From: Sphingomonadales bacterium
Lineage (GTDB): Bacteria; Pseudomonadota; Alphaproteobacteria; Sphingomonadales; Kordiimonadaceae
Direction of reading: 5' to 3'
Length of the DNA: 64,000 nt
NCBI GenBank assembly: GCA_011088215.1
Contig: JAALKD010000003.1
Span: 29,763 to 93,762 of the forward strand
Shown here in pieces: positions 35,815-58,021 of this stretch (position 1 is its first letter; every line of letters begins with the position of its first letter). Under the pieces are notes generated by a model. The model saw only the letters and a program-made list of their open reading frames with translations. It was not told where the DNA came from and searched no databases. The translations under genes and the position numbers were made by a program.

Positions 35815-35844
35815 AAAAAAGGCTGGCATATGCCAGTCTTTTTT
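35815..35844. terminator. Bidirectional intrinsic terminator
   Basis: AAAAAAGGCTGGCA-TA-TGCCAGTCTTTTTT between convergent hyuB and ABM genes. Confidence 0.8.
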
Positions 35845-36259
35845 ATTGCAAAGACACCGGAAGTGGGTGCGTGTAAGTCATGGTTGGCTCTTCGGTAAGA
35901 AGCGTCAAAATATGGGCCCAGTCACCCGATGCAACTATTCGATCATAATGCTCTCGGTGCAGCGTTATACTCTGCCAGCGTTCAACCAGAATAAATTCCC
36001 GGTCATCTTCAGCCCCGCGGTATACCTGCGCAGTTTGAAAACCCGCCTCGCCCGTCATTGCTTTTTCAACTCCTGCCATAATTTTCTTAAATTCCTGCTG
36101 ATGGTCTGAATGCGTTTTGAAATGGATTACTAAATAGACGCTAGTGTCGTTCGCCCCTTCACTTGCAAATGTCGAATTGGAAAATAGCGATAGAAAACCT
36201 GCCACTAACGCCGCCATCAAAGTTACCTTGCTGGGCCTCTTTTTAGAAAAAACTATCAT
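35843..36259 (-). CDS. Antibiotic-biosynthesis-monooxygenase (ABM)-domain protein with probable signal peptide
   Basis: EAGFQTAQVY...FILVERWQSITLHREH pattern; N-terminus KKRPSKVTLMAALVAGFLSLFSNSTFA. Confidence 0.75.
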   Translation of the reverse strand: MIVFSKKRPSKVTLMAALVAGFLSLFSNSTFASEGANDTSVYLVIHFKTHSDHQQEFKKIMAGVEKAMTGEAGFQTAQVYRGAEDDREFILVERWQSITLHREHYDRIVASGDWAHILTLLTEEPTMTYTHPLPVSLQ

Positions 36260-36363: not shown

Positions 36364-37245
36364 ATGCAAGAAACGTTCAACTGGCAAGACCTAAAATTAT
36401 TCATAGAGGTGGCTGACGCCAAGGGGTTGGCAGGTGCTGCCGCTGCAACTGGCATAAGTGCGCCAACGCTTGGGCGGCGTATGTTATCTTTGGAACAGAT
36501 AGCAGGGCGCGAGCTGTTTATTCGGCACCGCAACGGGTATGATTTAACAATTGCGGGCAAAGACCTGCTCTCACATGCTCGCGCAATGCAAAAGGCCTAT
36601 GCCGGTGTTAAACGATGGCAGGAAGACGCCGACACAACACCTACGGTAAAAATCTCAGCCGGCGTCTGGACAAGCCAGTTCATTGCCAGCAATAGCAGGC
36701 ACCTTTTGTCGAAAACGATGAACATACGCTTGGCTTTAACGCCAGATAACAACTTTGTCGACATCGCCAAACGCGAGGCTCACTTAGCGATCCGAAACCA
36801 ACGGCCTTCTCAAAACGGGTTGGCGATCAAAAAATTGGGAACTGTTGAATTTGCTGTATACGGCGCCCGCAGCCTCCAAGACACTCACCGACCCAAACCT
36901 GAGTTCGCCGATCTGTTTACCGATTTTCCCTGGGTCGCCTTTAAGCCTCGAAACAGTAGCACAGCCTCCGCAACATGGCTCGGCCGTCGATTGAGGAAAC
37001 CGCCCCGATTGAGCTGCAGCTCGCCAACACCGGTTCTGGAAGCAGCGCGCGGCGGAACCGGGCTTTGTGTTTTGCCCTGCTTTATCGGGGACGCTGAGCC
37101 GTTGCTAGCGAGGTGTAGCCAACCGATCAATGAATTGTCGCATACGCAGTGGCTGGTTAGCCACGATGAGGACCGGCACCTCAAGCATGTTAAAACGATA
37201 GCGAAACGGGTAACAGCCATCTTCAAAAATCAATCGCGGCTTTAA
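36364..37245 (+). CDS. LysR-family regulator
   Basis: NWQDLKLFIEVADAKGLAGAAAATGISAPTLGRRMLSLE...LFIR; divergent from the ABM gene. Confidence 0.9.
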   Translation: MQETFNWQDLKLFIEVADAKGLAGAAAATGISAPTLGRRMLSLEQIAGRELFIRHRNGYDLTIAGKDLLSHARAMQKAYAGVKRWQEDADTTPTVKISAGVWTSQFIASNSRHLLSKTMNIRLALTPDNNFVDIAKREAHLAIRNQRPSQNGLAIKKLGTVEFAVYGARSLQDTHRPKPEFADLFTDFPWVAFKPRNSSTASATWLGRRLRKPPRLSCSSPTPVLEAARGGTGLCVLPCFIGDAEPLLARCSQPINELSHTQWLVSHDEDRHLKHVKTIAKRVTAIFKNQSRL

Positions 37246-37425
37246 GTTATATATCGGTCTGTCAAAGGTCCATGATACGGTCAACATCATCCACGGTTTC
37301 TTCAAGGCTACTGAAATAGGGAGCAACAATGAACAGGCTCATTGATATGGATCATTGTTTCGGTGCAGCTGTCTTGGTCTGCTACAAGCTCGTTAATCGT
37401 CTCATACAATCAGCGGGGAAAAGCC

Positions 37426-39986: not shown

Positions 39987-41009
39987 TTAATCCGCCATTT
40001 CATACAGATCAATTTTGCTACCACCGGGTGCAATTGCCTCTGCAATATTCACAGAACCTACACCTGACAGAGGCATGTCTACTGCGATGTCGGAAACTTC
40101 AAAGCCCATTGCGCGCAGTTTAACGACCATTGCCTCCAGGCCTTCAACCGGAAACCGCAGGCGCGCAAGGCCTCGATTTGGCATGGATGTTCGGCCGGAG
40201 AAGTCCCGCCCCGTTGCGCCTTCATAAGCAAGAAGCTCAATGCTGCCTTCATTTCTACCCTGCGGGTGTAAAATTGAAACATCACGGATTACTGAGGTGG
40301 CCATATTGTGGGGGATGCCCAACACATTGGGGCCTGCTTCCCTGGACCCGCTTTTATGTTCAAGGTAGGACGTAAACCCGAGGCCCTCACGCCAGAAACG
40401 GCGCGCTTCTGTAATGTCAGCCACAATCATGGTTGCGTTAAAGGCACGTGAAAATTTCTTCAAATTAGGCCAGCCCTCCAGCGTTGGTTTAACCCGTTCA
40501 ATGACGGCGATACGCACACTGTCGGGGCCTCGCGGCAACCACTCTTTCACCACAAACGGACCAAAGGAAAACTGCACCGGATCACTGAAAGAAGACCATC
40601 CGCGTTTCATCAATGCCATGCGCGCAGTGTCCATATCCGCAATGCGCATGTTAAAATCAAAAATACCACCCGTGTCCCACGCCTGATCATTAGGGCGAAT
40701 AAGCGGCGCTGCGGTGCCGTCGAATTCGATCAGACGCACAAACCCACGCTTGGACCCTGGGTTGGCGAGCAACGTGTATTTCGCTGCCGCCCCCACATCC
40801 CACATTTTGAGCCACTTTCTATCCACGTTCCCGGTTCCGATAACCTGCCACGCACCAACCTCTTCGAACATAGTCTGAAGCTGACCACCGTTGGCTGTAA
40901 CAATAACAATCTCATGATAACCGGCTGTAACGGTTTGTGCATTTGCACCGGCAAACGGCGCGACCAAGAGAACAATCGCCACTAATACAGAGGAAAATTT
41001 TTCGATCAT
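39987..41009 (-). CDS. Two-domain VOC (glyoxalase-like) protein with signal peptide
   Basis: MIEKFSSVLVAIVLLVAPFAGANA signal peptide; GPDSVRIAVIE and PGGSKIDLYE VOC ends; ATGA overlap with the upstream gene. Confidence 0.75.
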   Translation of the reverse strand: MIEKFSSVLVAIVLLVAPFAGANAQTVTAGYHEIVIVTANGGQLQTMFEEVGAWQVIGTGNVDRKWLKMWDVGAAAKYTLLANPGSKRGFVRLIEFDGTAAPLIRPNDQAWDTGGIFDFNMRIADMDTARMALMKRGWSSFSDPVQFSFGPFVVKEWLPRGPDSVRIAVIERVKPTLEGWPNLKKFSRAFNATMIVADITEARRFWREGLGFTSYLEHKSGSREAGPNVLGIPHNMATSVIRDVSILHPQGRNEGSIELLAYEGATGRDFSGRTSMPNRGLARLRFPVEGLEAMVVKLRAMGFEVSDIAVDMPLSGVGSVNIAEAIAPGGSKIDLYEMAD

Positions 41010-41803
41010 GCGTCCAACCATTCTCTTATCCTCCCGGCAACAGTTTTTGCATCTACATCAAACAAATCGCCGCTCAGGTCTGGCCATTCCTGAAGCGTGG
41101 CATTTTGAAACAGTGGTGCCGCTTTACGGCTGCTTGCGGCCAGCATTTCATCCGGTATGGGAATAAGAACCGGATGAGACAACGACGGTAAAACCACGTC
41201 CGGATCAAATTTGAACACGGCAGCAAAGCCCCGGTTCATGCCGTCCGCGCCCGGGCGTAAACTTTCCGCAAACAATGCCAAAAATTGGTCGTCTGACTGC
41301 TTTCCCTGCGCTTTCAGACCCATGTCCCAGCGTTTCAGGATATAGCCCTCTTCGGTAAAGTAAGGCCGCGTTTTAGAAAACATCTCTAGTCGAGCTGCTC
41401 GATCTTCTACTGCCACATAAGGAATGCCCGGCAAAACCAGTTTCCGCACCCGTTCAGGGGCAAGGTGTGCGACCGCAGCGGCGACAAACGAGCCAGTGTG
41501 AAAGCCCATCAAATCTACAGTTTCCAGCTCCAGTGCATCCAGCATCTCAACCATAACTGCCGCGTAGCCTTCCATAGTCGAATCGCTGTCTAACGCGTCC
41601 GAGCCACCGTATCCCGGCGTATCCGGGCAAACCACCAATCGATCCGTTGCCATTTCAGGGGCAAAGCTATTGTAGCAAAGCCCAGAGTATGGGCTCATGT
41701 GAAAACAGACCAACGGAGTCGGGCCACACTGTTTATCGCCAGCAACCCTCAGATGAAGCTGGCCTGTCGAGCAATCGATATATTTTCTGGTCATGCTAGT
41801 CAT
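41006..41803 (-). CDS. Alpha/beta-hydrolase-fold protein with GFHTG elbow
   Basis: PLVCFHMSP, PDTPGYGGSD, MGFHTGS; no Ser, Asp or Cys at the nucleophile position. Confidence 0.82.
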   Translation of the reverse strand: MTSMTRKYIDCSTGQLHLRVAGDKQCGPTPLVCFHMSPYSGLCYNSFAPEMATDRLVVCPDTPGYGGSDALDSDSTMEGYAAVMVEMLDALELETVDLMGFHTGSFVAAAVAHLAPERVRKLVLPGIPYVAVEDRAARLEMFSKTRPYFTEEGYILKRWDMGLKAQGKQSDDQFLALFAESLRPGADGMNRGFAAVFKFDPDVVLPSLSHPVLIPIPDEMLAASSRKAAPLFQNATLQEWPDLSGDLFDVDAKTVAGRIREWLDA

Positions 41804-41815
41804 TCGTCACTCCAG

Positions 41816-42349
41816 TTAATCATCAAGTTTGTAAATCACGATCAGGTGGCCGTCATGATCGAGAAAACCTTGCTGACGGCCTTTTCGGCCATCCCTCGTT
41901 TCAAGACGGTTTACAGAAAAAACTTCTAAACCTTCGTCGCGCGCCTGCGCGATTACATCGTCAAAGTCGACTACATCCAGAACGATCGCTGCGCGGTACG
42001 GCAAAGACGCTGGTCGCATCTCCACGCCTTTAACTTCAGTTAAACCCATGACCCGTGGTTGTGTAGCGGAGCTAAGCGTGGCCGCACGAATTTTCGCGCC
42101 GCTATCAACGCCGAAAACTTCATACCCGTAATCTCCCTCTTCAAGTTCGTTGAGGCTGACAACTTTCAGGCCCAAGATACCCTGATAAACCCGTAAAGCA
42201 CGATCCAGGTCGCTAACCACATAATTGGCGCGCTGAAGCCTTACGCCCGGAGCCGCATTTTCTTCCGTCTCTTTTTGAAAAGGCAAAGCTGTTGCCGGAA
42301 ACAGCACAAAGAAGAGCAATAAAATTATCGAACTGCGCAAAGGTTTCAT
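41816..42349 (-). CDS. VOC-family protein with probable signal peptide
   Basis: RANYVVSDLDRALRVYQGILGL and FLDHDGHLIVIY; N-terminus MKPLRSSIILLLFFVLFPATA. Confidence 0.78.
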   Translation of the reverse strand: MKPLRSSIILLLFFVLFPATALPFQKETEENAAPGVRLQRANYVVSDLDRALRVYQGILGLKVVSLNELEEGDYGYEVFGVDSGAKIRAATLSSATQPRVMGLTEVKGVEMRPASLPYRAAIVLDVVDFDDVIAQARDEGLEVFSVNRLETRDGRKGRQQGFLDHDGHLIVIYKLDD

Positions 42350-42404
42350 CACAGACCGTGCTCGTTGAATAAATGCAAAATTGCAGGAGAGGCACAAGTA
42401 AAAA

Positions 42405-42872
42405 TCATTTGGGATGTTCAAGGATTAAATAAATCACGATTAGATTGCCATCATAATCCAAAAACCCTAGCTCCCTTCCTTTGCGGCCGTCTTTTGTCTC
42501 CAGACTGCCCTCTTTAAAAACGGTAAGCCCGGCTTCTTTGGCTCGGTTCATCACGCCGTCAAAATCTGTGCATTCAAGCACAATTGCTGACCGACTTGGG
42601 AGCGGCACATCATCAAGCTCGACACCCTTCAGTTCAGTGAGTGCCATGACATTTGGTTGCTCAGGCGTGCCCAGTACCGCAAAACGCATTTTCGCGGCGC
42701 GGTCAATCTGAAACACCTCATAGGAATAGCTGTCTTCCGCCGATTCTTTGATGAAAACAACATCAAGGCCCAGCACATCACGGTAGACCGGTATCGCCCG
42801 GTCCAGGTCGCGCACAACATAGTTGGATCGCTGGAATCGTACGGGTGGTTTTTCAGAGATTGATTGGGCCAT
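42405..42872 (-). CDS. VOC-family protein (paralog of 41816-42349, no signal peptide)
   Basis: RSNYVVRDLDRAIPVYRDVLGL and FLDYDGNLIVIY. SD AAGGA before ATG 42872. Confidence 0.82.
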   Translation of the reverse strand: MAQSISEKPPVRFQRSNYVVRDLDRAIPVYRDVLGLDVVFIKESAEDSYSYEVFQIDRAAKMRFAVLGTPEQPNVMALTELKGVELDDVPLPSRSAIVLECTDFDGVMNRAKEAGLTVFKEGSLETKDGRKGRELGFLDYDGNLIVIYLILEHPK

Positions 42873-42884
42873 TGCATTTCCTTT

Positions 42885-42910
42885 TGTTATATAGATATAC
42901 TTATATAACA
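42885..42910. promoter_or_regulatory. Inverted repeat in the divergent VOC promoter
   Basis: TGTTATATA-N8-TATATAACA inside a 66-bp divergent spacer; half-sites resemble the TGWTATA motif. Confidence 0.55.
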
Positions 42911-42938
42911 TTTAGGTACGCCGAGTAAAGAAACCGAT

Positions 42939-43430
42939 ATGGAAAAACCTGACCTACATTTGCTAGACAGTCCGCTTTTGAAGCGAACCACAATCCGGGT
43001 GCGCGATATGGACAAAGCCGTCGCTTTTTATGAGCGTGTGATTGGTATGAAGAAATACTATGATAATGAAGTTTTACTGGATCGCCACTTTTTACCCGGC
43101 GAAAAACCCGGCGACAAAATCCATTTGGTCATCATGCAGGGCAGCGACCCCGTGATCGGTATGGTTGGCTTACTCAAGTGGCTTGAACCCCAGCAAACGC
43201 CGCCACCGGTTTCATACGACTTTGAATTTGGCCAGCCGGTATTTGTTGTGCAAACGCCGGATGCTCAAGCCCTATATGCAAAAGCCAAAGAATCGGGCTG
43301 CAAAATAACTTCTGCACTTACGGAAACTGAATATCCAGCCGCAAATGGCGGCACAGTCAAAGTTCGCTCGGTCGGACTTTTTGACCCCGACGGCCATTTT
43401 TTTGAATGTAACCAACGGTTGGCCTGTTAA
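42939..43430 (+). CDS. VOC-family protein
   Basis: KRTTIRVRDMDKAVAFYERVIGM and FDPDGHFFECNQ. Confidence 0.85.
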   Translation: MEKPDLHLLDSPLLKRTTIRVRDMDKAVAFYERVIGMKKYYDNEVLLDRHFLPGEKPGDKIHLVIMQGSDPVIGMVGLLKWLEPQQTPPPVSYDFEFGQPVFVVQTPDAQALYAKAKESGCKITSALTETEYPAANGGTVKVRSVGLFDPDGHFFECNQRLAC

Positions 43431-43460
43431 CACCAACTATAATTTTTTGAAGGATCCCCA

Positions 43461-43925
43461 ATGACCGCAATGATCAAACGCACCACACTTAAAGTGCGCG
43501 ACATGGAAAAATCAATCGCCTTTTATGAAGGCGTTATTGGTATGTCCAAATATTATGACAATGAAATTACCCTGACTGGCAACTTACTGCCCGGCGGCGG
43601 CAAAGGCGATGTTACTCGCCTTGTCATCATGCAGGGCGAAGATCCTGTTATTGGCATGATAGGGTTGTTGGAATGGCTTAGCCCCAAGCCGGATGCGCCG
43701 GAAATTCCCTATGATTTTGATTTTGGCAACCCAGTGTTTGTTGCAGCAGTGGACGACGCCGAAGAGGCCTACGCCAAAGCACAAGCCCTGAACTGTGTTA
43801 TTCGTGCGCCCCTCAGCGAAGGTGAGTATCCGGGAGCCAACGGTGGTATTGTCAAAGTTCGTTCCGTAGGCGTTTTTGACCCCGACGGTCATTTTTTCGA
43901 ACTGAACCAACGACTGGAAGGCTAG
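43461..43925 (+). CDS. VOC-family protein (tandem paralog of 42939-43430)
   Basis: KRTTLKVRDMEKSIAFYEGVIGM and FDPDGHFFELNQ. Confidence 0.85.
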   Translation: MTAMIKRTTLKVRDMEKSIAFYEGVIGMSKYYDNEITLTGNLLPGGGKGDVTRLVIMQGEDPVIGMIGLLEWLSPKPDAPEIPYDFDFGNPVFVAAVDDAEEAYAKAQALNCVIRAPLSEGEYPGANGGIVKVRSVGVFDPDGHFFELNQRLEG

Positions 43926-43930
43926 GTCGA

Positions 43931-45295
43931 CTAGTCGATAAACTTCGCTAGTTCCGAACGGTAAGCCCTGCCAATAAAACCGGAAAACAACAGAATCGTG
44001 CCGCTATATAAAAGCGGCACCAACGACATGGAGTATCGGATTAGGCTTTCGTCACCGAACAGAAAGTCCGTGAAGAGTGGTACAACGGAAGGTCCTATTA
44101 GCAGCCCTGTCATGCTGATGAACATATAGTATAGAGCAACAGCCTGCCCGCGCAGTTCACTGGGTAAAATCGCCAGCAACGCGGTGATGCCCCCAGCGGT
44201 TACCATGGTAAAGCCGACATTGGCGAACTGCGATATGATAAAGGCAGTCCAGACATCCGGCATAAGCGGGAAGATCACACTTGAAACCACGAGCACGCCC
44301 AGCCCGGCCTGTGTAATGACAAACGGCATGTCATGCCGCCCCTTCTGATTGAAATGATCAATCACCCACCCCCAAAACAGGATGGAAGTTGGCGCCAAAA
44401 TTAGAAGGACCGAACCATTATAATTGCTGAAGGTTGACGCGCTCCAACCCCACGTGCGTTCAAACAACGGAGGCAACCACATGCTGGTATAGGCTATTGC
44501 AGTCATACCAGACACCATTACCGTAATACCCAGCAGGGGCAGTTTATGCCCCCAAATATAGCCAAGTGTTTGCCTAAATGTTGCAGCGCCTTTACCGCCG
44601 GTGGCAGAAAGCTTGGTTTGTTTGCGCGGGGGTTCTTTGACTGTTAAAAACACAAGGCCCAAAAGAATACCGGGAAAGCCAACCGCCAGGAACACAACCT
44701 GCCAGGGTTTGTCTACGCCGATAAATGCGAGATACGACAGGTCTGCCGTTTCGGCATAATCGAGGATGGCACCAACAACGAGATAGGCTATCGCCGAACC
44801 GACCCCCAACGCCATGGAATAGAAGGCGATTGCCTTTGCCCGTCGTTCAGGCGCAAACAGATCAGAGATTAGTGACATCGCGCTGGGGCTGAGAGCAGCC
44901 TCTCCGAAACCAACGGCCATGCGCGCCACAAACAGTTGGGCAAATCCGCGAGCAATTCCTGTTGCCATCGTCGCGACAGACCAGAGAATGGCACCCAGTG
45001 CAACAATGAATTTGCGTGGTTTACGGTCCACCAACCAGCCAAGCGGGATACCCATCGTCGCATAAAAAATGGCAAACGCCGCGCCGCCAAGCAACCCCAT
45101 ATTGGTATCAGACAGTCCCAGGTCTGCTTTCATTGGTTCCAAAACCAACCCAAGCACGATCCGGTCAATATAGGAGAAAATATAAGCGACTGTAAGCAAG
45201 ACAACCACATACCAACCGTAGCTTTCGCTAAGGTGCTCCCCTTTATCCGGACCACTAGGCGACTGTGCTTCGTTTGATTTTGGTGCGTCTGTCAT
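43931..45295 (-). CDS. MFS transporter (spinster-like)
   Basis: YIFSYIDRIVLG, GWLVDRKPRK, ARMAVGFGEAALSP. SD GGGGAG before ATG 45295. Confidence 0.9.
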   Translation of the reverse strand: MTDAPKSNEAQSPSGPDKGEHLSESYGWYVVVLLTVAYIFSYIDRIVLGLVLEPMKADLGLSDTNMGLLGGAAFAIFYATMGIPLGWLVDRKPRKFIVALGAILWSVATMATGIARGFAQLFVARMAVGFGEAALSPSAMSLISDLFAPERRAKAIAFYSMALGVGSAIAYLVVGAILDYAETADLSYLAFIGVDKPWQVVFLAVGFPGILLGLVFLTVKEPPRKQTKLSATGGKGAATFRQTLGYIWGHKLPLLGITVMVSGMTAIAYTSMWLPPLFERTWGWSASTFSNYNGSVLLILAPTSILFWGWVIDHFNQKGRHDMPFVITQAGLGVLVVSSVIFPLMPDVWTAFIISQFANVGFTMVTAGGITALLAILPSELRGQAVALYYMFISMTGLLIGPSVVPLFTDFLFGDESLIRYSMSLVPLLYSGTILLFSGFIGRAYRSELAKFID

Positions 45296-45455
45296 GAGCC
45301 ATTCTCCCCGCTGTGACCAGACGGTCACTTACTCGATTCGTCAATTGTTATATCTTTATCACAACTTTTACCAGTTCATTGACGTGTATCAATGCAGGAA
45401 GCGAGTTCATTTCTGACTATGCTGGCGAGAAAAGCTCGTACGCAGGGAGAGAGCA

Positions 45456-50875: not shown

Positions 50876-52069
50876 ATGGCCGGCAAGCTTCAGCGCCCCT
50901 TAAGTGGGATCAAAGTTATCGAATTTACCCATATGGTAATGGGGCCAACGGTTGGACTGATTTTGGCGGACCTTGGTGCTGACGTGATCAAGATTGAACC
51001 AACTAAAGGTGACAATACCCGCCGACTTATCGGGTCGGGCGCAGGTTATTTTCCAATGTACAACCGCAATAAGCGTAGTATTTGCCTCGATATTAAAACC
51101 GAACGCGGCAAAGAAATTGCCAACAAGCTTATCGAAAAGGCAGACGTGTTCGTCGAAAACTTCCGACCGGGCGCCATGGACAAACTGGGTTTCAGCTATG
51201 ACGCCGTGTTTACCAACAACCCCAAACTGGTTTACTGTTCGGAAAAAGGATTTCTATCCGGCCCTTATGAAGACCGTGCCGCATTAGATGAAGTCGCACA
51301 GATGATGGGCGGTCTGGCTTATATGACTGGTCCGCCCGGCCGCCCGCTGCGCGCGGGTGCCAGCGTAACCGATGTTACTGGCGGCATGTTCGGGGCTATT
51401 GCTATTCTTGCTGCACTGGAAGAACGTCATCGCACAGGCAAAGGCCAATATGTCAAAAGCTCACTTTATGAAACAAGCGCCTTCCTGGTTGGGCAGCATA
51501 TGGCTCAATATGCAGTTACAGGTACGGCCGCTCGCCCCATGGCGGCTCGGATTTCTGCCTGGGCTATCTACGATATTTTTGAGACTTCAGATAATGATCA
51601 GGTCTTCGTGGGGGTAGTAAGTGATACCCAGTGGCGTCTATTTTGCGATGCATTCGATCTGTCAGAATTAGCCGAACACCAAGACTATGCACAAAACGCG
51701 GCACGAGTGGCAAAGCGCGATGAACTTATTCCAAAGATCGCCGGGATTTTCAAAAATTATACAAAAGCAGCATTGATGGAAAAGTTGGAATCGGCCGGAT
51801 TACCTTTCGCCCCAATCAACAGACCCGAAGATTTGTTCGATGACCCGCATTTAAGCGCTGGTGACAGTCTTATTGATGTTTCCTTATCCGATGGCGCCAA
51901 GGCGTCACTGCCTGCACTTCCAATCGAAATGGCTGGGAAACGCCCTGACCTCTATCAGGATCTGCCCGGCATCGGTGAACATACAAACAGCGTATTGGAA
52001 GAGATCGGTTATTCGTCCGAGGAAATTGAAATATTGGCGACTGACTTGGTAACAAAACGCTCAGGCTAG
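50876..52069 (+). CDS. Class III CoA-transferase (CaiB/BaiF)
   Basis: MVMGPTVG, VIKIEP, NRNKRSICLD, ENFRPGAMDKLG, SVTDVTGG. Confidence 0.92.
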   Translation: MAGKLQRPLSGIKVIEFTHMVMGPTVGLILADLGADVIKIEPTKGDNTRRLIGSGAGYFPMYNRNKRSICLDIKTERGKEIANKLIEKADVFVENFRPGAMDKLGFSYDAVFTNNPKLVYCSEKGFLSGPYEDRAALDEVAQMMGGLAYMTGPPGRPLRAGASVTDVTGGMFGAIAILAALEERHRTGKGQYVKSSLYETSAFLVGQHMAQYAVTGTAARPMAARISAWAIYDIFETSDNDQVFVGVVSDTQWRLFCDAFDLSELAEHQDYAQNAARVAKRDELIPKIAGIFKNYTKAALMEKLESAGLPFAPINRPEDLFDDPHLSAGDSLIDVSLSDGAKASLPALPIEMAGKRPDLYQDLPGIGEHTNSVLEEIGYSSEEIEILATDLVTKRSG

Positions 52070-53079
52070 CTTACGTGAACGATTTGCTTGCCTACGTTTT
52101 TACCGTCATAAAGCCGGATCAAAGCTGTTGGCATCATCTCTAGCCCCTCCAGTCGGTCTTCCTGATAGGTCAAATCACCACTAGCAATCCATTCCGCCAT
52201 TGTCGCCTCGGCTTCAGCAAACATCGGCGCATAGTCATAAACGAAAAAGCCCTGCATTTTAGCGCACATATGGCCGATTTCGCCCCAGTTCCGCAATCGG
52301 TAAGGCTCATCGTTCAAATATTCTGATATACGCCCACAACAAATGATCCGAGCATATTTGTTAATATGCAACAGCACTTGGTCAAGGATCGAGCCGCCTA
52401 CATTGTCGAAGAAAATATCGACCCCGTCCGGCGTCACTTGAGAAAGCGCTTCGCCAACGTCCTGATCACGGTAATTGATCGTCGCGTGGCACCCCAGTTT
52501 TTCCTCGAGCAAACGACATTTTTCGTTTGAGCCAGCAATGCCGATGACCCTGCAGCCCATGAGGCGTGCCAATTGCACCGCTGTGCTCCCAACACCGCCA
52601 AGCGCGCCTGAGACAACAACGGTTTCACCTTTCTTGGGTTTGCCAATATCCTTCAACGCGCAGTAGGAAGTAAAGCCAGTCATGCCGAGTACACCCAGGC
52701 CTGTGGCAATCGGCGCGACAGTTTGGCGAATGGCAAACATCAGACTACCCGGCGCGCCGTCCGCTACCGCATAATCCTGCCAGCCAAGCTTTCCTTGCAC
52801 GATTGTGCCAACGGGCCATTCGGTATTGCGGCTTTCGACAATTTCACCAACACCGCGGCCGCGCATCACATCACCGATTGCCAGAGGTTCTTCGATACCC
52901 GCACCATCAATCATGTAATTGCGCATAACCGGGGCAACCGAGAGATAGCGTGTGCGAAGTAGAAATTCGCCCTTCTCAATTGAAGGAATGGCTTTTTCCT
53001 GCAGGCTAAAGTCACTCTCTTTAACTGCGCCCACCGGGCGAGCTGCGAGACACCACTGTCGGTTTACTTTTACGGTCAT
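52066..53079 (-). CDS. Second NADP-dependent alkenal/ene reductase (MDR, prostaglandin-reductase-like)
   Basis: YLSVAP, LGVLGMTGFTSY, VSGALGGVGS, FFDNVGG, GKNVGKQIV. SD AAGGA. Confidence 0.9.
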   Translation of the reverse strand: MTVKVNRQWCLAARPVGAVKESDFSLQEKAIPSIEKGEFLLRTRYLSVAPVMRNYMIDGAGIEEPLAIGDVMRGRGVGEIVESRNTEWPVGTIVQGKLGWQDYAVADGAPGSLMFAIRQTVAPIATGLGVLGMTGFTSYCALKDIGKPKKGETVVVSGALGGVGSTAVQLARLMGCRVIGIAGSNEKCRLLEEKLGCHATINYRDQDVGEALSQVTPDGVDIFFDNVGGSILDQVLLHINKYARIICCGRISEYLNDEPYRLRNWGEIGHMCAKMQGFFVYDYAPMFAEAEATMAEWIASGDLTYQEDRLEGLEMMPTALIRLYDGKNVGKQIVHVS

Positions 53080-53189
53080 ACTTGTTTCCTTCACCGGAGT
53101 AAGCATGAAGAGAGAATACACTCGCTATGATGTAGATCATTTCCGCGCCGCATACCGTATAGCAGGCTCCGAAAAAAGGAGATTAACCT

Positions 53190-57089: not shown

Positions 57090-57902
57090 CTAAGTTTCGG
57101 CTTTCCAAAAATTCGACTCTTCACCTTCGATACGCGCCAAACTCATATTCAGCTGATACAGATCAGGACGGTAAAGCACCGTAATAAATTCAACTGGTCG
57201 ATCATTACCGTCAAATACCACACGCATCACTTTCAAAAGTGGACTACCAACATTGACCCCAAGCGCTGGCGCGGTCTTACCGTCCGCCAATGTCGCAGTA
57301 ATAGACTGCCGAGCGCGCGAAATGCGCACACCGGCGCGCTCCAGAAGCGCAAGCAATGGCTGATTTTCCATCTCATCACGCTCAAAAGAATGTCCAATAT
57401 CCGCAGGCACGTATGTTTCAACAAATGAAAAGGGCGTATCATCTTTATGCCGAACCCGAATAGCGCGTTGCACCGAAGCCCCAACTTCAATATCAAGTGC
57501 CTCGGCCGCGCGCGGCGGTGCGCCCACATAATCAAATTCCAAGATTACAACATGAGTTTCCTGGGCAATGGTCAACAGGTTTTCGAGCAACCCATCCATT
57601 GTCTCTGCGCTTTTAGAGGGTACTGGTGTGGAAAAGGTTACCACTGTGCCGCGGCCGCGCTGGCGCGCAACCAAACCATCTGCAGCAAGTTCATCCAGCG
57701 CGCGTTTAGCCGTAATCCGTGACACGCCAAAAACTTTTTCAATCTCATGCTCACTCGGGATCAAAGAACCATCAGTATAGTCGCCAGAAACAATTTTCTC
57801 CCTGAGCAAGACATAAATCTGATGATACAGCGGTGTAGGCAAATCCTCACTGACCCGCTCGGTTGCCGAGAAGGATAACATTGACGACGTTTTTTTGTTC
57901 AT
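57090..57902 (-). CDS. GntR-family regulator (HutC subfamily, UTRA domain)
   Basis: PLYHQIYVLLREKI..G...IPSEHEI...FGVSRITAKRAL..L...G.VARQRGRGTVV plus UTRA-type C-terminus. Confidence 0.92.
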   Translation of the reverse strand: MNKKTSSMLSFSATERVSEDLPTPLYHQIYVLLREKIVSGDYTDGSLIPSEHEIEKVFGVSRITAKRALDELAADGLVARQRGRGTVVTFSTPVPSKSAETMDGLLENLLTIAQETHVVILEFDYVGAPPRAAEALDIEVGASVQRAIRVRHKDDTPFSFVETYVPADIGHSFERDEMENQPLLALLERAGVRISRARQSITATLADGKTAPALGVNVGSPLLKVMRVVFDGNDRPVEFITVLYRPDLYQLNMSLARIEGEESNFWKAET

Positions 57903-58021
57903 AGACCCCACCAAAAATTACTCAAGGACAAGAAGGTTGCCAAAAATTTCGCCTGAGCCCCTCACGCGAATTTAAGTGGCTATTGATGTGCATCAACGCC
58001 CGTCCACTTCAATCTACCTAT

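What the first reader, a model, noticed from the sequence alone, without database searches (positions are those of the whole stretch)
39987..43925. Five VOC genes in 4 kb, as two paralog pairs, with canonical metal ligands partly missing
Seen: 42939/43461 are close tandem paralogs and 41816/42405 are a second pair; a two-domain VOC lies at 39987. The first beta-strand carries Arg (KRTT, QRSN, QRAN) where His or Gln is usual, and the 41816/42405 pair ends in LIVIY without the terminal Glu. Inference: atypical or metal-free VOCs acting as heterodimers, isomerases or ligand-sequestering proteins (as bleomycin-resistance proteins do).
Basis: partly seen in the sequence, partly recalled or inferred. 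Interest (0 to 1): 0.55.

Follow-up and report, generated by a model that had tools for sequence, protein, structure and literature searches.

The report
Arg-for-His VOC proteins in catabolic operon
The five clustered glyoxalase-fold (VOC) genes are real, and the four small ones belong to two uncharacterised subfamilies that carry an invariant arginine where the metal-binding histidine should be and that form the core of a catabolic operon shared by many marine proteobacteria, so they probably work without the metal that defines the fold.

Summary
Five VOC genes lie in 3.9 kb of a Kordiimonas genome: V163/V154 (62% identical), V168/V201 (58%) and a two-domain VOC, V344.

- **Metal ligands.** Against the glyoxalase I ligands H5/E56/H74/E122, V163/V154 ("VOC-A") read R/L/variable/E. 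V168/V201 ("VOC-B") read R/A/A/V. The same genome has a canonical GloA-like protein and a methylmalonyl-CoA epimerase elsewhere.
- **Conservation.** The Arg is nearly invariant: 92 of 97 representative clusters of the wider VOC-B family, with a companion Glu in 93 of 97. dN is low (0.06-0.12), so these are not decaying genes.
- **New context.** In 80 loci from marine Alpha- and Gammaproteobacteria, VOC-A lies within 3 kb of VOC-B in 64. In 45 the order is VOC-A, CurA-like enone reductase, VOC-B, usually followed by an MFS transporter and an alpha/beta hydrolase with His at its nucleophile elbow. CpcT-like, DUF1838, TonB-receptor and amide-hydrolase genes are often nearby.
- **Pairs.** V201 and V344 carry signal peptides, so V168/V201 cannot be a heterodimer. 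Both duplications look specific to the Kordiimonas lineage.

Best reading (inferred): metal-independent proton-transfer enzymes flanking the enone reductase. Ligand sequestration remains a serious rival. The scan holds no look-alike on other DNA.

The parts
39987..41021 (-). V344: exported two-domain VOC-fold protein. Its first 16 bases overlap the end of the hydrolase gene.
   Evidence: PF00903 is sub-threshold at 17 bits. The A3 profile hits PDB VOC chains and the C-terminal half aligns to VOC-B at 94.9%. ESM-Atlas neighbours are VOC clusters of about 340 aa. The N-terminus and its orthologues show a signal peptide with an AxA site. The first-strand ligand position is Asn and the N-domain His is not conserved.
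41006..41803 (-). Alpha/beta-hydrolase-fold protein with His at the nucleophile elbow (GFHTG). Co-operonic partner of the VOCs.
   Evidence: PF00561, 44 bits. The motif is read directly and in the Parasphingorhabdus orthologue. It lies within 4 kb of VOC-B in 48 of 80 loci.
41816..42349 (-). V201: exported paralog of VOC-B (signal peptide, QRAN...LIVIY).
   Evidence: PF00903, 38 bits. It is 58% identical to V168. The exported copies form one clade beside the Kordiimonas V168 clade (SH-aLRT 94, quick tree).
42405..42872 (-). V168: cytoplasmic VOC-B (RFQRxN, SYSY, LTE, TKDGRxGRE, LIVIY). None of the four canonical ligands is present.
   Evidence: AF2 model pLDDT 94.0. Foldseek finds a VOC fold, best match 1ss4 at TM 0.74-0.78.
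42885..42910 (.). Perfect 9-bp inverted repeat TGTTATATA-N8-TATATAACA in the 66-bp divergent V168/V163 promoter region. Probable operator.
   Evidence: Read. It is the only match within 3 mismatches in each 20-kb relative locus, and it lies at the same intergenic position in L011-L015. The half-site TTGTTATA recurs at 45345 and 50772, in other divergent promoters.
42939..43430 (+). V163: cytoplasmic VOC-A, the lineage-specific second copy (KRTT...DPDGHFFECNQ).
   Evidence: PF00903, 45 bits. AF2 model pLDDT 90.9. Ligand map R16/L78/Q99/E156.
43461..43925 (+). V154: cytoplasmic VOC-A, the widely conserved type.
   Evidence: PF00903, 39.5 bits. It is 62% identical to V163. It is the only VOC-A in Eilatimonas (L016). 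R7, E147, N149 and Q150 are conserved in at least 95% of 58 sequences.
43931..45328 (-). MFS transporter, co-conserved with VOC-B.
   Evidence: PF07690, 148 bits. It lies within 3 kb of VOC-B in 67 of 80 loci.
52066..53121 (-). CurA-like NADPH enone reductase. Orthologue of the gene that sits between VOC-A and VOC-B in most other taxa.
   Evidence: It is 43-48% identical to the L085 and L035 genes. NF058644 scores 344 bits, below its cut-off of 440, and PF16884 matches.

Best explanation
**Shown**
- The four small proteins belong to two distantly related, uncharacterised VOC subfamilies: VOC-A (V154 and its recent copy V163) and VOC-B (V168 and its exported copy V201).
- Both subfamilies have lost the canonical H/E/H/E metal site and carry an invariant Arg on strand beta-1 at the position of the first metal ligand.
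- Each keeps one invariant Glu: E156 on beta-8 in VOC-A and E80 on beta-4 in VOC-B.
- The two subfamilies co-occur across genomes and form the core of a conserved operon: VOC-A, CurA-like NADPH enone reductase, VOC-B, MFS transporter, His-elbow alpha/beta hydrolase.
- In Kordiimonas that operon has been rearranged and both VOC types duplicated. One VOC-B copy (V201) and the two-domain V344 are sent to the periplasm.

**Inferred**
- The proteins are metal- and cofactor-independent enzymes.
- The Arg guanidinium takes the Lewis-acid role of the metal by polarising a substrate carbonyl or carboxylate.
- The Glu acts as the base for a proton transfer (tautomerisation or double-bond isomerisation) that prepares or follows the NADPH-dependent C=C reduction.
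- The substrate is an imported, anionic, conjugated-carbonyl compound.
- Downstream amide and imide hydrolases, a LeuCD-like hydratase, a CoA-transferase and a lyase then take the products into central metabolism.
For: - **Ligand mapping.** Arg aligns with H5 and the module-2 Gln of maize glyoxalase I. E156 aligns with the terminal Glu. V146 aligns with the Glu of STM3117.
- **Shared site.** hhalign of A1 against A2 gives 96.8% and aligns R16/R15, E129/E121 and R143/R133.
- **Conservation.** VOC-B has 35 positions conserved in at least 95% of 69 sequences, including R15, R94, R130, R133, E80, E121, D128 and Y148. VOC-A keeps R7, E147, N149 and Q150. In the wider family, R15 is present in 92 of 97 clusters and E80 in 93 of 97, and the terminal position is Glu in none of them.
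- **Selection.** dN is 0.06-0.12 for V154, V163 and V168, similar to the neighbouring PuuE-like and MFS genes.
- **Canonical enzymes elsewhere.** A GloA-like protein and a methylmalonyl-CoA epimerase with full ligand sets are encoded elsewhere in the genome.
- **Operon.** Of 80 loci, VOC-A is within 3 kb of VOC-B in 64, MFS in 67 and the enone reductase in 51. The order VOC-A, reductase, VOC-B occurs in 45.
- **Genome co-occurrence.** In one evenly drawn sample of 300 Alphaproteobacteria, 5 have VOC-B, 6 have VOC-A and 4 have both.
- **Export.** About 64 of 98 representative clusters carry a signal-peptide-like N-terminus. That argues against dependence on glutathione, CoA or NADPH.
- **Parallel in the same cluster.** PuuE-type enzymes are themselves a metal-independent offshoot of a metal-dependent fold, and close PuuE relatives act as imidases (PMC11424739).
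Against: - No biochemical data exist for either subfamily.
- The residue geometry (Arg-Glu pairing, which side chains face the pocket) is inferred from strand positions. I had no access to model coordinates.
- Foldseek gives only generic VOC neighbours at TM 0.5-0.8, a mix of enzymes and drug-binding proteins.
- Metal-free VOCs of known function are mostly binding proteins.
- dS is saturated, so omega values are rough.
- In two genomes that have both types (G073, G255) the genes are not adjacent.
- The substrate is unknown, so the coupling to the reductase rests on gene order only.
Confidence: 0.42

Rival explanations
1. Ligand-binding or sequestering proteins, working like bleomycin-, mitomycin- or enediyne-binding VOCs. 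They would hold a reactive or poorly soluble pathway compound in the periplasm (V201, V344) and the cytoplasm (V168, V163, V154) and hand it on to the enzymes or the transporter.
For: - There is no canonical metal site.
- TnmS1/TnmS3, TioX and UcmS2 binding proteins appear among the fold neighbours.
- PF22677 (Ble-like_N) is precomputed on many VOC-B homologues.
- The operon encodes no classical periplasmic binding protein, but it does encode other likely carrier-type proteins, CpcT-like and DUF1838.
- The family is mostly exported.
Against: - Conservation of charged residues is very high across classes: 35 positions at 95% or more in VOC-B, and near-invariant Arg and Glu in the wider family. 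From my own knowledge, drug-binding VOCs vary more than this.
- Two distinct subfamilies are kept side by side, with a reductase between them.
- The window's own proteins did not match PF22677 at E <= 0.01.
Confidence: 0.27
2. They are still metalloenzymes that use a non-canonical ligand set (for example E156, H153 and D59 or D70 in VOC-A; E80, E121 and D128 in VOC-B) and catalyse a lyase, hydrolase or oxygenase step.
For: - Several invariant acidic and His residues remain.
- From my own knowledge, VOC enzymes tolerate varied ligand sets (H/Q/H/E in methylmalonyl-CoA epimerase, H/H/E in FosA and extradiol dioxygenases).
- The classic gene pairing of a VOC dioxygenase with an alpha/beta hydrolase resembles this operon.
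Against: - A cationic Arg sits at the first ligand position in 92 of 97 clusters, which would disfavour a cation there.
- H153 in VOC-A falls in the DPDG-H turn and is Asn at the aligned position of V168.
- The partner hydrolase lacks the Ser nucleophile of meta-cleavage-product hydrolases (GFHTG).
- Scores against every curated metalloenzyme model are 15-25 bits against cut-offs of 115-320.
Confidence: 0.15
3. VOC-A and VOC-B form an obligate A/B heterodimer, a split version of a two-domain VOC. In Kordiimonas, V163 and V154 would give alternative heterodimers. This is compatible with either an enzymatic or a binding role.
For: - The two types are tightly co-located (64 of 80 loci) and co-occur in genomes (4 of the 5 genomes with VOC-B).
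- Both share the aligned Arg, Glu and Arg positions.
- From my own knowledge, small VOCs are normally dimers with their sites at the interface.
Against: - No A-B fusion was found among longer proteins. This is weak evidence: one odd hit only.
- Exported copies of each type occur at separate loci (V201 here; the VOC-A paralog at G000:C32).
- G287 has VOC-B without VOC-A, and G089 and G267 have VOC-A without VOC-B.
- No multimer prediction was possible with these tools.
Confidence: 0.2

Closest known systems
Glyoxalase I (GloA; TIGR00068; E. coli 1F9Z, maize 6BNN)
   Same: It has the same paired beta-alpha-beta-beta-beta fold. 1F9Z is the best (V163) or third-best (V168) Foldseek match. Maize glyoxalase I is the best sequence match in the PDB. 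The beta-1/helix motif (V-x-D-l-d-x-a-l-x-F-Y) is shared.
   Different: H5, E56 and H74 are replaced in both subfamilies, and E122 as well in VOC-B. TIGR00068 scores 20-25 bits against a cut-off of 120. The genome has its own GloA-like gene. Many family members are exported, away from glutathione.
Metal-free VOC binding proteins (bleomycin-resistance protein, mitomycin MRD, TnmS1-3, TioX, UcmS2)
   Same: They share the VOC fold without a metal site. They appear among the fold neighbours. PF22677 is recorded on some VOC-B homologues.
   Different: Those proteins lie in antibiotic producer or resistance contexts. These lie in a conserved catabolic operon with a reductase, a transporter and hydrolases. 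These also show an invariant Arg-Glu-Tyr constellation.
Methylmalonyl-CoA epimerase (TIGR03081)
   Same: It is a VOC enzyme whose chemistry is pure proton transfer, which is the kind of reaction proposed here.
   Different: It uses a divalent metal bound by H/Q/H/E (my own knowledge). The cluster VOCs score at most 18.9 bits against a cut-off of 115. The genome's real epimerase is at G000:C63 (170 bits).
B. cereus glyoxalase-family protein APC24694 (PDB 1SS4)
   Same: It is the closest fold match to V168 (TM 0.74-0.78, rmsd 3.1 A) and a good match to V163 (TM 0.70-0.77).
   Different: Sequence identity is only 16-17%. It is a structural-genomics entry with no function in its title, so it gives no functional lead.
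Extradiol dioxygenase plus meta-cleavage-product hydrolase gene pairs (BphC/BphD type)
   Same: A VOC gene sits next to an alpha/beta-hydrolase gene in a catabolic operon.
   Different: There is no 2-His-1-carboxylate triad. The hydrolase has His, not Ser, at the nucleophile elbow. Catechol 2,3-dioxygenase and HpaD models score 16-18 bits against cut-offs above 320.

Membership tests
VOC superfamily (Pfam PF00903 Glyoxalase) | Sequence match above the Pfam gathering score | tested here: met
   V201 38.1, V168 37.8, V163 45.4 and V154 39.5 bits against a cut-off of 20.6. V344 scores only 17.3 bits, below the cut-off, but its family profile hits PDB VOC chains and aligns to VOC-B at 94.9%.
VOC superfamily (Pfam PF00903 Glyoxalase) | Two tandem beta-alpha-beta-beta-beta modules | tested here: met
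   The AF2 models (pLDDT 90.9 and 94.0) show a strand-helix-three-strand pattern twice. Foldseek gives probability 1.00 to many VOC structures.
Glyoxalase I (TIGR00068) | Metal ligands H5/E56/H74/E122 (E. coli numbering) and a score above the curated cut-off | tested here: not met
   The ligand map is R/L/variable/E in VOC-A and R/A/A/V in VOC-B. Scores are 20.6-25.4 bits against a cut-off of 120.
Methylmalonyl-CoA epimerase (TIGR03081) | Score above the cut-off and an H/Q/H/E metal site | tested here: not met
   Only V168 matches, at 18.9 bits against a cut-off of 114.95. The ligand positions are not conserved.
Type I extradiol dioxygenases (TIGR03211, TIGR02295) | A 2-His-1-carboxylate Fe(II) triad | tested here: not met
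   Scores are 16-18 bits against cut-offs of about 320. There is no His at the strand positions. V344 has Asn at the C-domain first-strand position, and its N-domain His is not conserved among homologues.
Fosfomycin-resistance VOCs (FosA/FosB/FosX) | Metal site and a score above the cut-off | tested here: not met
   Scores are 15.7-18.5 bits against cut-offs of 171-280, and only the beta-1/helix segment matches.
Bleomycin-resistance-like binding proteins (PF22677 Ble-like_N) | Match to the family model | tested here: inconclusive
   PF22677 is precomputed on many VOC-B homologues. It is not reported for the window's own proteins at E <= 0.01.
Bleomycin-resistance-like binding proteins (PF22677 Ble-like_N) | Stoichiometric binding of a ligand without turnover | not testable with these tools
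   This needs purified protein and candidate ligands.

The most novel reading that the evidence does not exclude
The regulon may be an undescribed pathway by which marine heterotrophs take up and dismantle linear tetrapyrroles (phycobilins, phyllobilins, biliverdin-type pigments) or their pyrrolic and maleimide fragments.

Its parts would be a TonB receptor, CpcT-like and DUF1838 exported proteins, VOC-A, a CurA-like reductase, VOC-B, an MFS transporter, a His-elbow hydrolase, PuuE-like, isochorismatase-like and nitrilase-type amidases, and a LeuCD-like hydratase with a CoA-transferase and a lyase.

The Arg-for-metal VOCs would be a new class of cofactor-free isomerases acting on the conjugated lactam system, in both periplasm and cytoplasm.
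Probability: 0.15. Interest if true: 0.85.

Novelty: new variant of a known kind. Interest (0 to 1): 0.55.

Why it matters
The VOC superfamily is defined by a metal held by paired modules. The known metal-free members are mainly drug-binding resistance proteins.

Here, two deeply conserved subfamilies have a cationic Arg with a partner Glu where metal ligands normally sit. About 200 clusters at 50% identity match the VOC-B profile at E <= 1e-10, and roughly two thirds of the full-length ones look exported. Both subfamilies sit at the centre of an operon that recurs across marine Alpha- and Gammaproteobacteria.

If they are catalysts, they would show how a metalloenzyme scaffold can be converted to metal-free acid-base chemistry. 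PuuE, in the same cluster, is a precedent from a different fold. They also mark an uncharacterised catabolic pathway that could be tested directly in cultivable strains such as Kordiimonas, Eilatimonas milleporae, Temperatibacter marinus and Fretibacter rubidus.

Tried and rejected
Gene neighbourhoods were obtained with the genome search, the fetch from genomes and the search for related loci instead.
- **PDB by sequence** and **Foldseek** gave only generic VOC neighbours. No characterised close relative appeared. The DypB hits to V168 (E about 0.03) cover a 47-residue stretch and were dismissed as chance.
- **Fusion search** found no A-B or VOC-reductase fusion. Its single hit, P0122 (446 aa with AAA domains), looks like an assembly chimera.
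- **Literature searches** on DUF1838, metal-independent VOCs, CpcT in heterotrophs and bilin catabolism found nothing on this operon or these subfamilies.
- **dN/dS**: dS is saturated (above 1.6 or undefined), so only dN was used. For V201 the best tblastn hit was the V168 orthologue, so that row is not an orthologue comparison.
- **Careful ML tree** did not finish in the time allowed. The quick tree was used.
- **Pseudogenes or decaying duplicates**: rejected because of intact frames, low dN and conserved synteny.
- **Context of the exported VOC-A paralog** on G000:C32 was uninformative.
- **Model coordinates** cannot be read with these tools, so pocket geometry and dimer mode could not be examined.

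Full report

All five ORFs exist at the stated coordinates. From the minus strand to the plus strand the layout is:

| Gene | Coordinates | Strand |
|---|---|---|
| V344 | 39987-41021 | - |
| alpha/beta hydrolase | 41006-41803 | - |
| V201 | 41816-42421 | - |
| V168 | 42405-42911 | - |
| V163 | 42939-43430 | + |
| V154 | 43461-43925 | + |

- The database form of V168 starts at MAQS (P0038, 155 aa), which puts its start at 42872.
- V201 most plausibly starts at 42349 (MKPLR...), which gives a typical signal peptide.
- PF00903 is passed by the four small proteins (37.8-45.4 bits against a cut-off of 20.6). V344 reaches only 17 bits.
- V344 is nevertheless a VOC. Its family profile A3 hits many PDB VOC chains (best E 6e-5). 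Its C-terminal half aligns to VOC-B by hhalign at 94.9%. Its ESM-Atlas neighbours are VOC clusters of about 340 aa (score 0.96).
- Pair identities are 62% for V154/V163 and 58% for V168/V201, with about 22% between pairs.
- The genome has 27 PF00903 matches in 4.0 Mb, so five in 3.9 kb is far beyond chance (about 0.03 expected).

**2. Are the metal ligands missing?**

I mapped both families onto glyoxalase I (E. coli numbering H5/E56/H74/E122). The mapping used phmmer and hmmsearch alignments to maize glyoxalase I and to STM3117. It also used hhalign against the genome's own canonical GloA-like protein (L098).

| Ligand position | VOC-A (V163 numbering) | VOC-B (V168/P0038 numbering) |
|---|---|---|
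| H5 | R16 | R15 |
| E56 | L78 | A77 |
| H74 | Q99 (a variable column) | about A96 |
| E122 | E156 (kept) | V146 |

- VOC-A therefore keeps one of four ligands and VOC-B keeps none.
- The VOC-B assignments at E56 and H74 come from motif register and strand position, not from an alignment, because the hhalign match to GloA covered residues 19-51 only.
- As an internal control, the same genome encodes a GloA-like protein with H/E/H/E (111.9 bits on TIGR00068) and a true methylmalonyl-CoA epimerase (170 bits) on other contigs.
- Reading the first strand of the 26 open frames printed, Arg at that position occurs only in the four cluster genes and in one more VOC-A paralog, at G000:C32.
- In V344 the C-domain first-strand position is Asn. 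The terminal acid is Asp here and Glu in its orthologues. The N-domain His is not conserved among homologues.

**3. Is this a local oddity or a family trait?**

It is a family trait.

- In 58 non-redundant VOC-A sequences, R7, E147, N149 and Q150 (V154 numbering) are conserved in at least 95%.
- In 69 VOC-B sequences, 35 positions are conserved in at least 95%. They include four Arg (R15, R94, R130, R133), E80, E121, D128 and Y148.
- A profile search of 1.84 billion representatives found only 199 clusters at E <= 1e-10.
- Among the 97 full-length clusters, R15 is present in 92 and E80 in 93. Position 148 is Tyr in 74 and Phe in 13. The terminal-Glu position is Glu in none; it is Val, Leu, Ile or Ala in 83 and Asp in 2.
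- hhalign relates VOC-A and VOC-B at 96.8% and aligns R16/R15, E129/E121 and R143/R133.
- The AF2 models are confident (pLDDT 90.9 and 94.0) and show the standard two-module VOC topology.
- Foldseek neighbours are generic: 1F9Z, 1SS4, GloA2, FosX, TnmS and others, at TM 0.5-0.8.

**4. Are the genes functional?**

- Synteny is kept in 5 of 31 same-genus genomes and in Eilatimonas.
- dN against orthologues is 0.06-0.12 for V154, V163 and V168. That is similar to the neighbouring PuuE-like and MFS genes. dS is saturated.
- V344, the hydrolase and the exported VOC-B copies evolve faster.

**5. What are the paralog pairs?**

- Eilatimonas has one VOC-A and one VOC-B and lacks V344 (L016). G004 lacks V201.
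- Most other taxa also carry one VOC of each type.
- The exported VOC-B copies of Kordiimonas form a single long-branched clade beside the Kordiimonas V168 clade (SH-aLRT 94, inside a 98* group; quick tree). This fits a lineage-specific duplication that gained a signal peptide.
- V168 and V201 therefore sit in different compartments and cannot be a heterodimer.
- V163-type sequences are a derived subgroup. The more distant homologues look like V154.
- A third VOC-A paralog, with a signal peptide, lies on another contig (G000:C32).
- In the wider VOC-B family about 64 of 98 representative clusters have a signal-peptide-like N-terminus.

**6. What is the genomic context?**

The organism is a Kordiimonas, judging from the titles of the closest loci. 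I examined 80 loci carrying VOC-B. They come from marine Alpha- and Gammaproteobacteria, including Robiginitomaculaceae, Hyphomonadaceae, Sphingomonadales, Halieaceae, Woeseiaceae and Lysobacterales.

| Gene near VOC-B | Loci out of 80 |
|---|---|
| VOC-A within 3 kb | 64 |
| MFS transporter within 3 kb | 67 |
| Enone reductase (ADH_N_2 type) within 3 kb | 51 |
| Alpha/beta hydrolase within 4 kb | 48 |
| Colinear order VOC-A, reductase, VOC-B | 45 |

- The reductase is CurA-like (NF058644, 255-344 bits, below the equivalog cut-off).
- The hydrolase has GFHTG at the nucleophile elbow, both here and in Parasphingorhabdus.
- Other recurrent neighbours are DUF1330, YCII, CpeT/CpcT-family and DUF1838 proteins, TonB-dependent receptors, nitrilase-type, amidase-type and PuuE-like hydrolases, and CoA-transferase III with an HMGL-like lyase.
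- In the window the same set is spread over about 36-58 kb. The reductase orthologue is at 52066-53121, beside a second hydrolase.
- In one evenly drawn sample of 300 Alphaproteobacteria, VOC-B occurs in 5 genomes, VOC-A in 6 and both in 4. Related genomes are not independent, so this is not a formal test.
- A perfect inverted repeat, TGTTATATA-N8-TATATAACA (42885-42910), fills the 66-bp divergent V168/V163 promoter.
- That repeat is the only such site in each of the five Kordiimonas relatives, at the same position.
- Its half-site recurs in other divergent promoters of the region. This suggests a common regulator, possibly the HutC-type GntR at 57090-57914.

**7. How does it most likely work?**

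- **Shown:** the metal ligands are replaced; an Arg and a Glu are invariant; the proteins are conserved like enzymes; many members are exported; the genes are embedded in a catabolic operon around an NADPH enone reductase.
- **Inferred:** the guanidinium replaces the metal as the electrophile that polarises a carbonyl or carboxylate. The conserved Glu serves as base for a proton shift (tautomerisation or double-bond migration) on a conjugated, probably anionic substrate, given the four conserved Arg in VOC-B. This step would come before or after the reduction.
- Neighbouring PuuE-type enzymes are a precedent for a metal-free derivative of a metal-dependent fold, and for imide hydrolysis (PMC11424739).
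- I put this reading at about 0.4. Ligand sequestration or hand-over is next at about 0.27, and a non-canonical metal site at about 0.15.
- An A/B heterodimer is compatible with any of these and remains untested.

**8. Comparison with known families and novelty**

- These proteins are members of the VOC superfamily. They are not glyoxalase I, methylmalonyl-CoA epimerase, extradiol dioxygenases or Fos enzymes, because the defining ligands and the curated cut-offs are not met.
- They resemble bleomycin-type binding proteins only in lacking the metal.
- I found no paper on these subfamilies or on this operon.
- The scan's index holds no look-alike on other DNA.
- I class this as a new variant of a known kind.
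- The most novel reading still open is a bilin or pyrrole catabolic regulon with cofactor-free VOC isomerases. It rests on context only, mainly the CpcT-family genes in the operon.

Noticed in passing
window 42885-42910: A perfect 9-bp inverted repeat (TGTTATATA-N8-TATATAACA) lies in the divergent V168/V163 promoter. It is conserved at the same place in five Kordiimonas relatives. The half-site TTGTTATA also occurs at 45345 and 50772, in other divergent promoters.
   Followed up: partly
window 41006-41803; L085:11793-12599: The alpha/beta-hydrolase partner has His where the nucleophile (Ser, Asp or Cys) normally sits (GFHTG). The motif is kept in a Parasphingorhabdus orthologue that is 37% identical.
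   Followed up: partly
G000:C32:20179-20607 (outside the window; L017:8054-8647): A third VOC-A paralog (RRTT...DPDGFILEINE, about 35% identical) carries a signal peptide. It lies next to an exported DUF3108-like protein and a LysR regulator, in a context that gave no functional lead.
   Followed up: partly
L085, L035, L077, L049, L019 and other loci: In other taxa the VOC operon is followed by DUF1330, YCII, CpeT/CpcT-family (PF06206) and DUF1838 genes and preceded by a TonB-dependent receptor. Sphingomonads also carry a second kind of two-domain VOC (300-335 aa), an enoyl-CoA hydratase, a PuuE-like gene and an amidase downstream.
   Followed up: partly
window 37245-37342 versus L011:2221-4451: The Kordiimonas relatives have about 2.2 kb between the LysR gene and the isochorismatase-like gene, including a sodium:solute symporter (PF00474). 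The window has only a 96-bp gap there.
   Followed up: no
wider VOC-B family (proteins P0123-P0270): About two thirds of the representative clusters of the Arg/Glu VOC-B-like family have a signal-peptide-like N-terminus. A few are fused to other domains (322-581 aa, e.g. P0149, P0185, P0201, P0218, P0227).
   Followed up: partly
window 35843-36259: An ABM-fold (antibiotic biosynthesis monooxygenase) protein with a signal peptide lies between the HyuAB-like genes and the LysR regulator. It is conserved at 43-49% identity in four of the five relatives.
   Followed up: no
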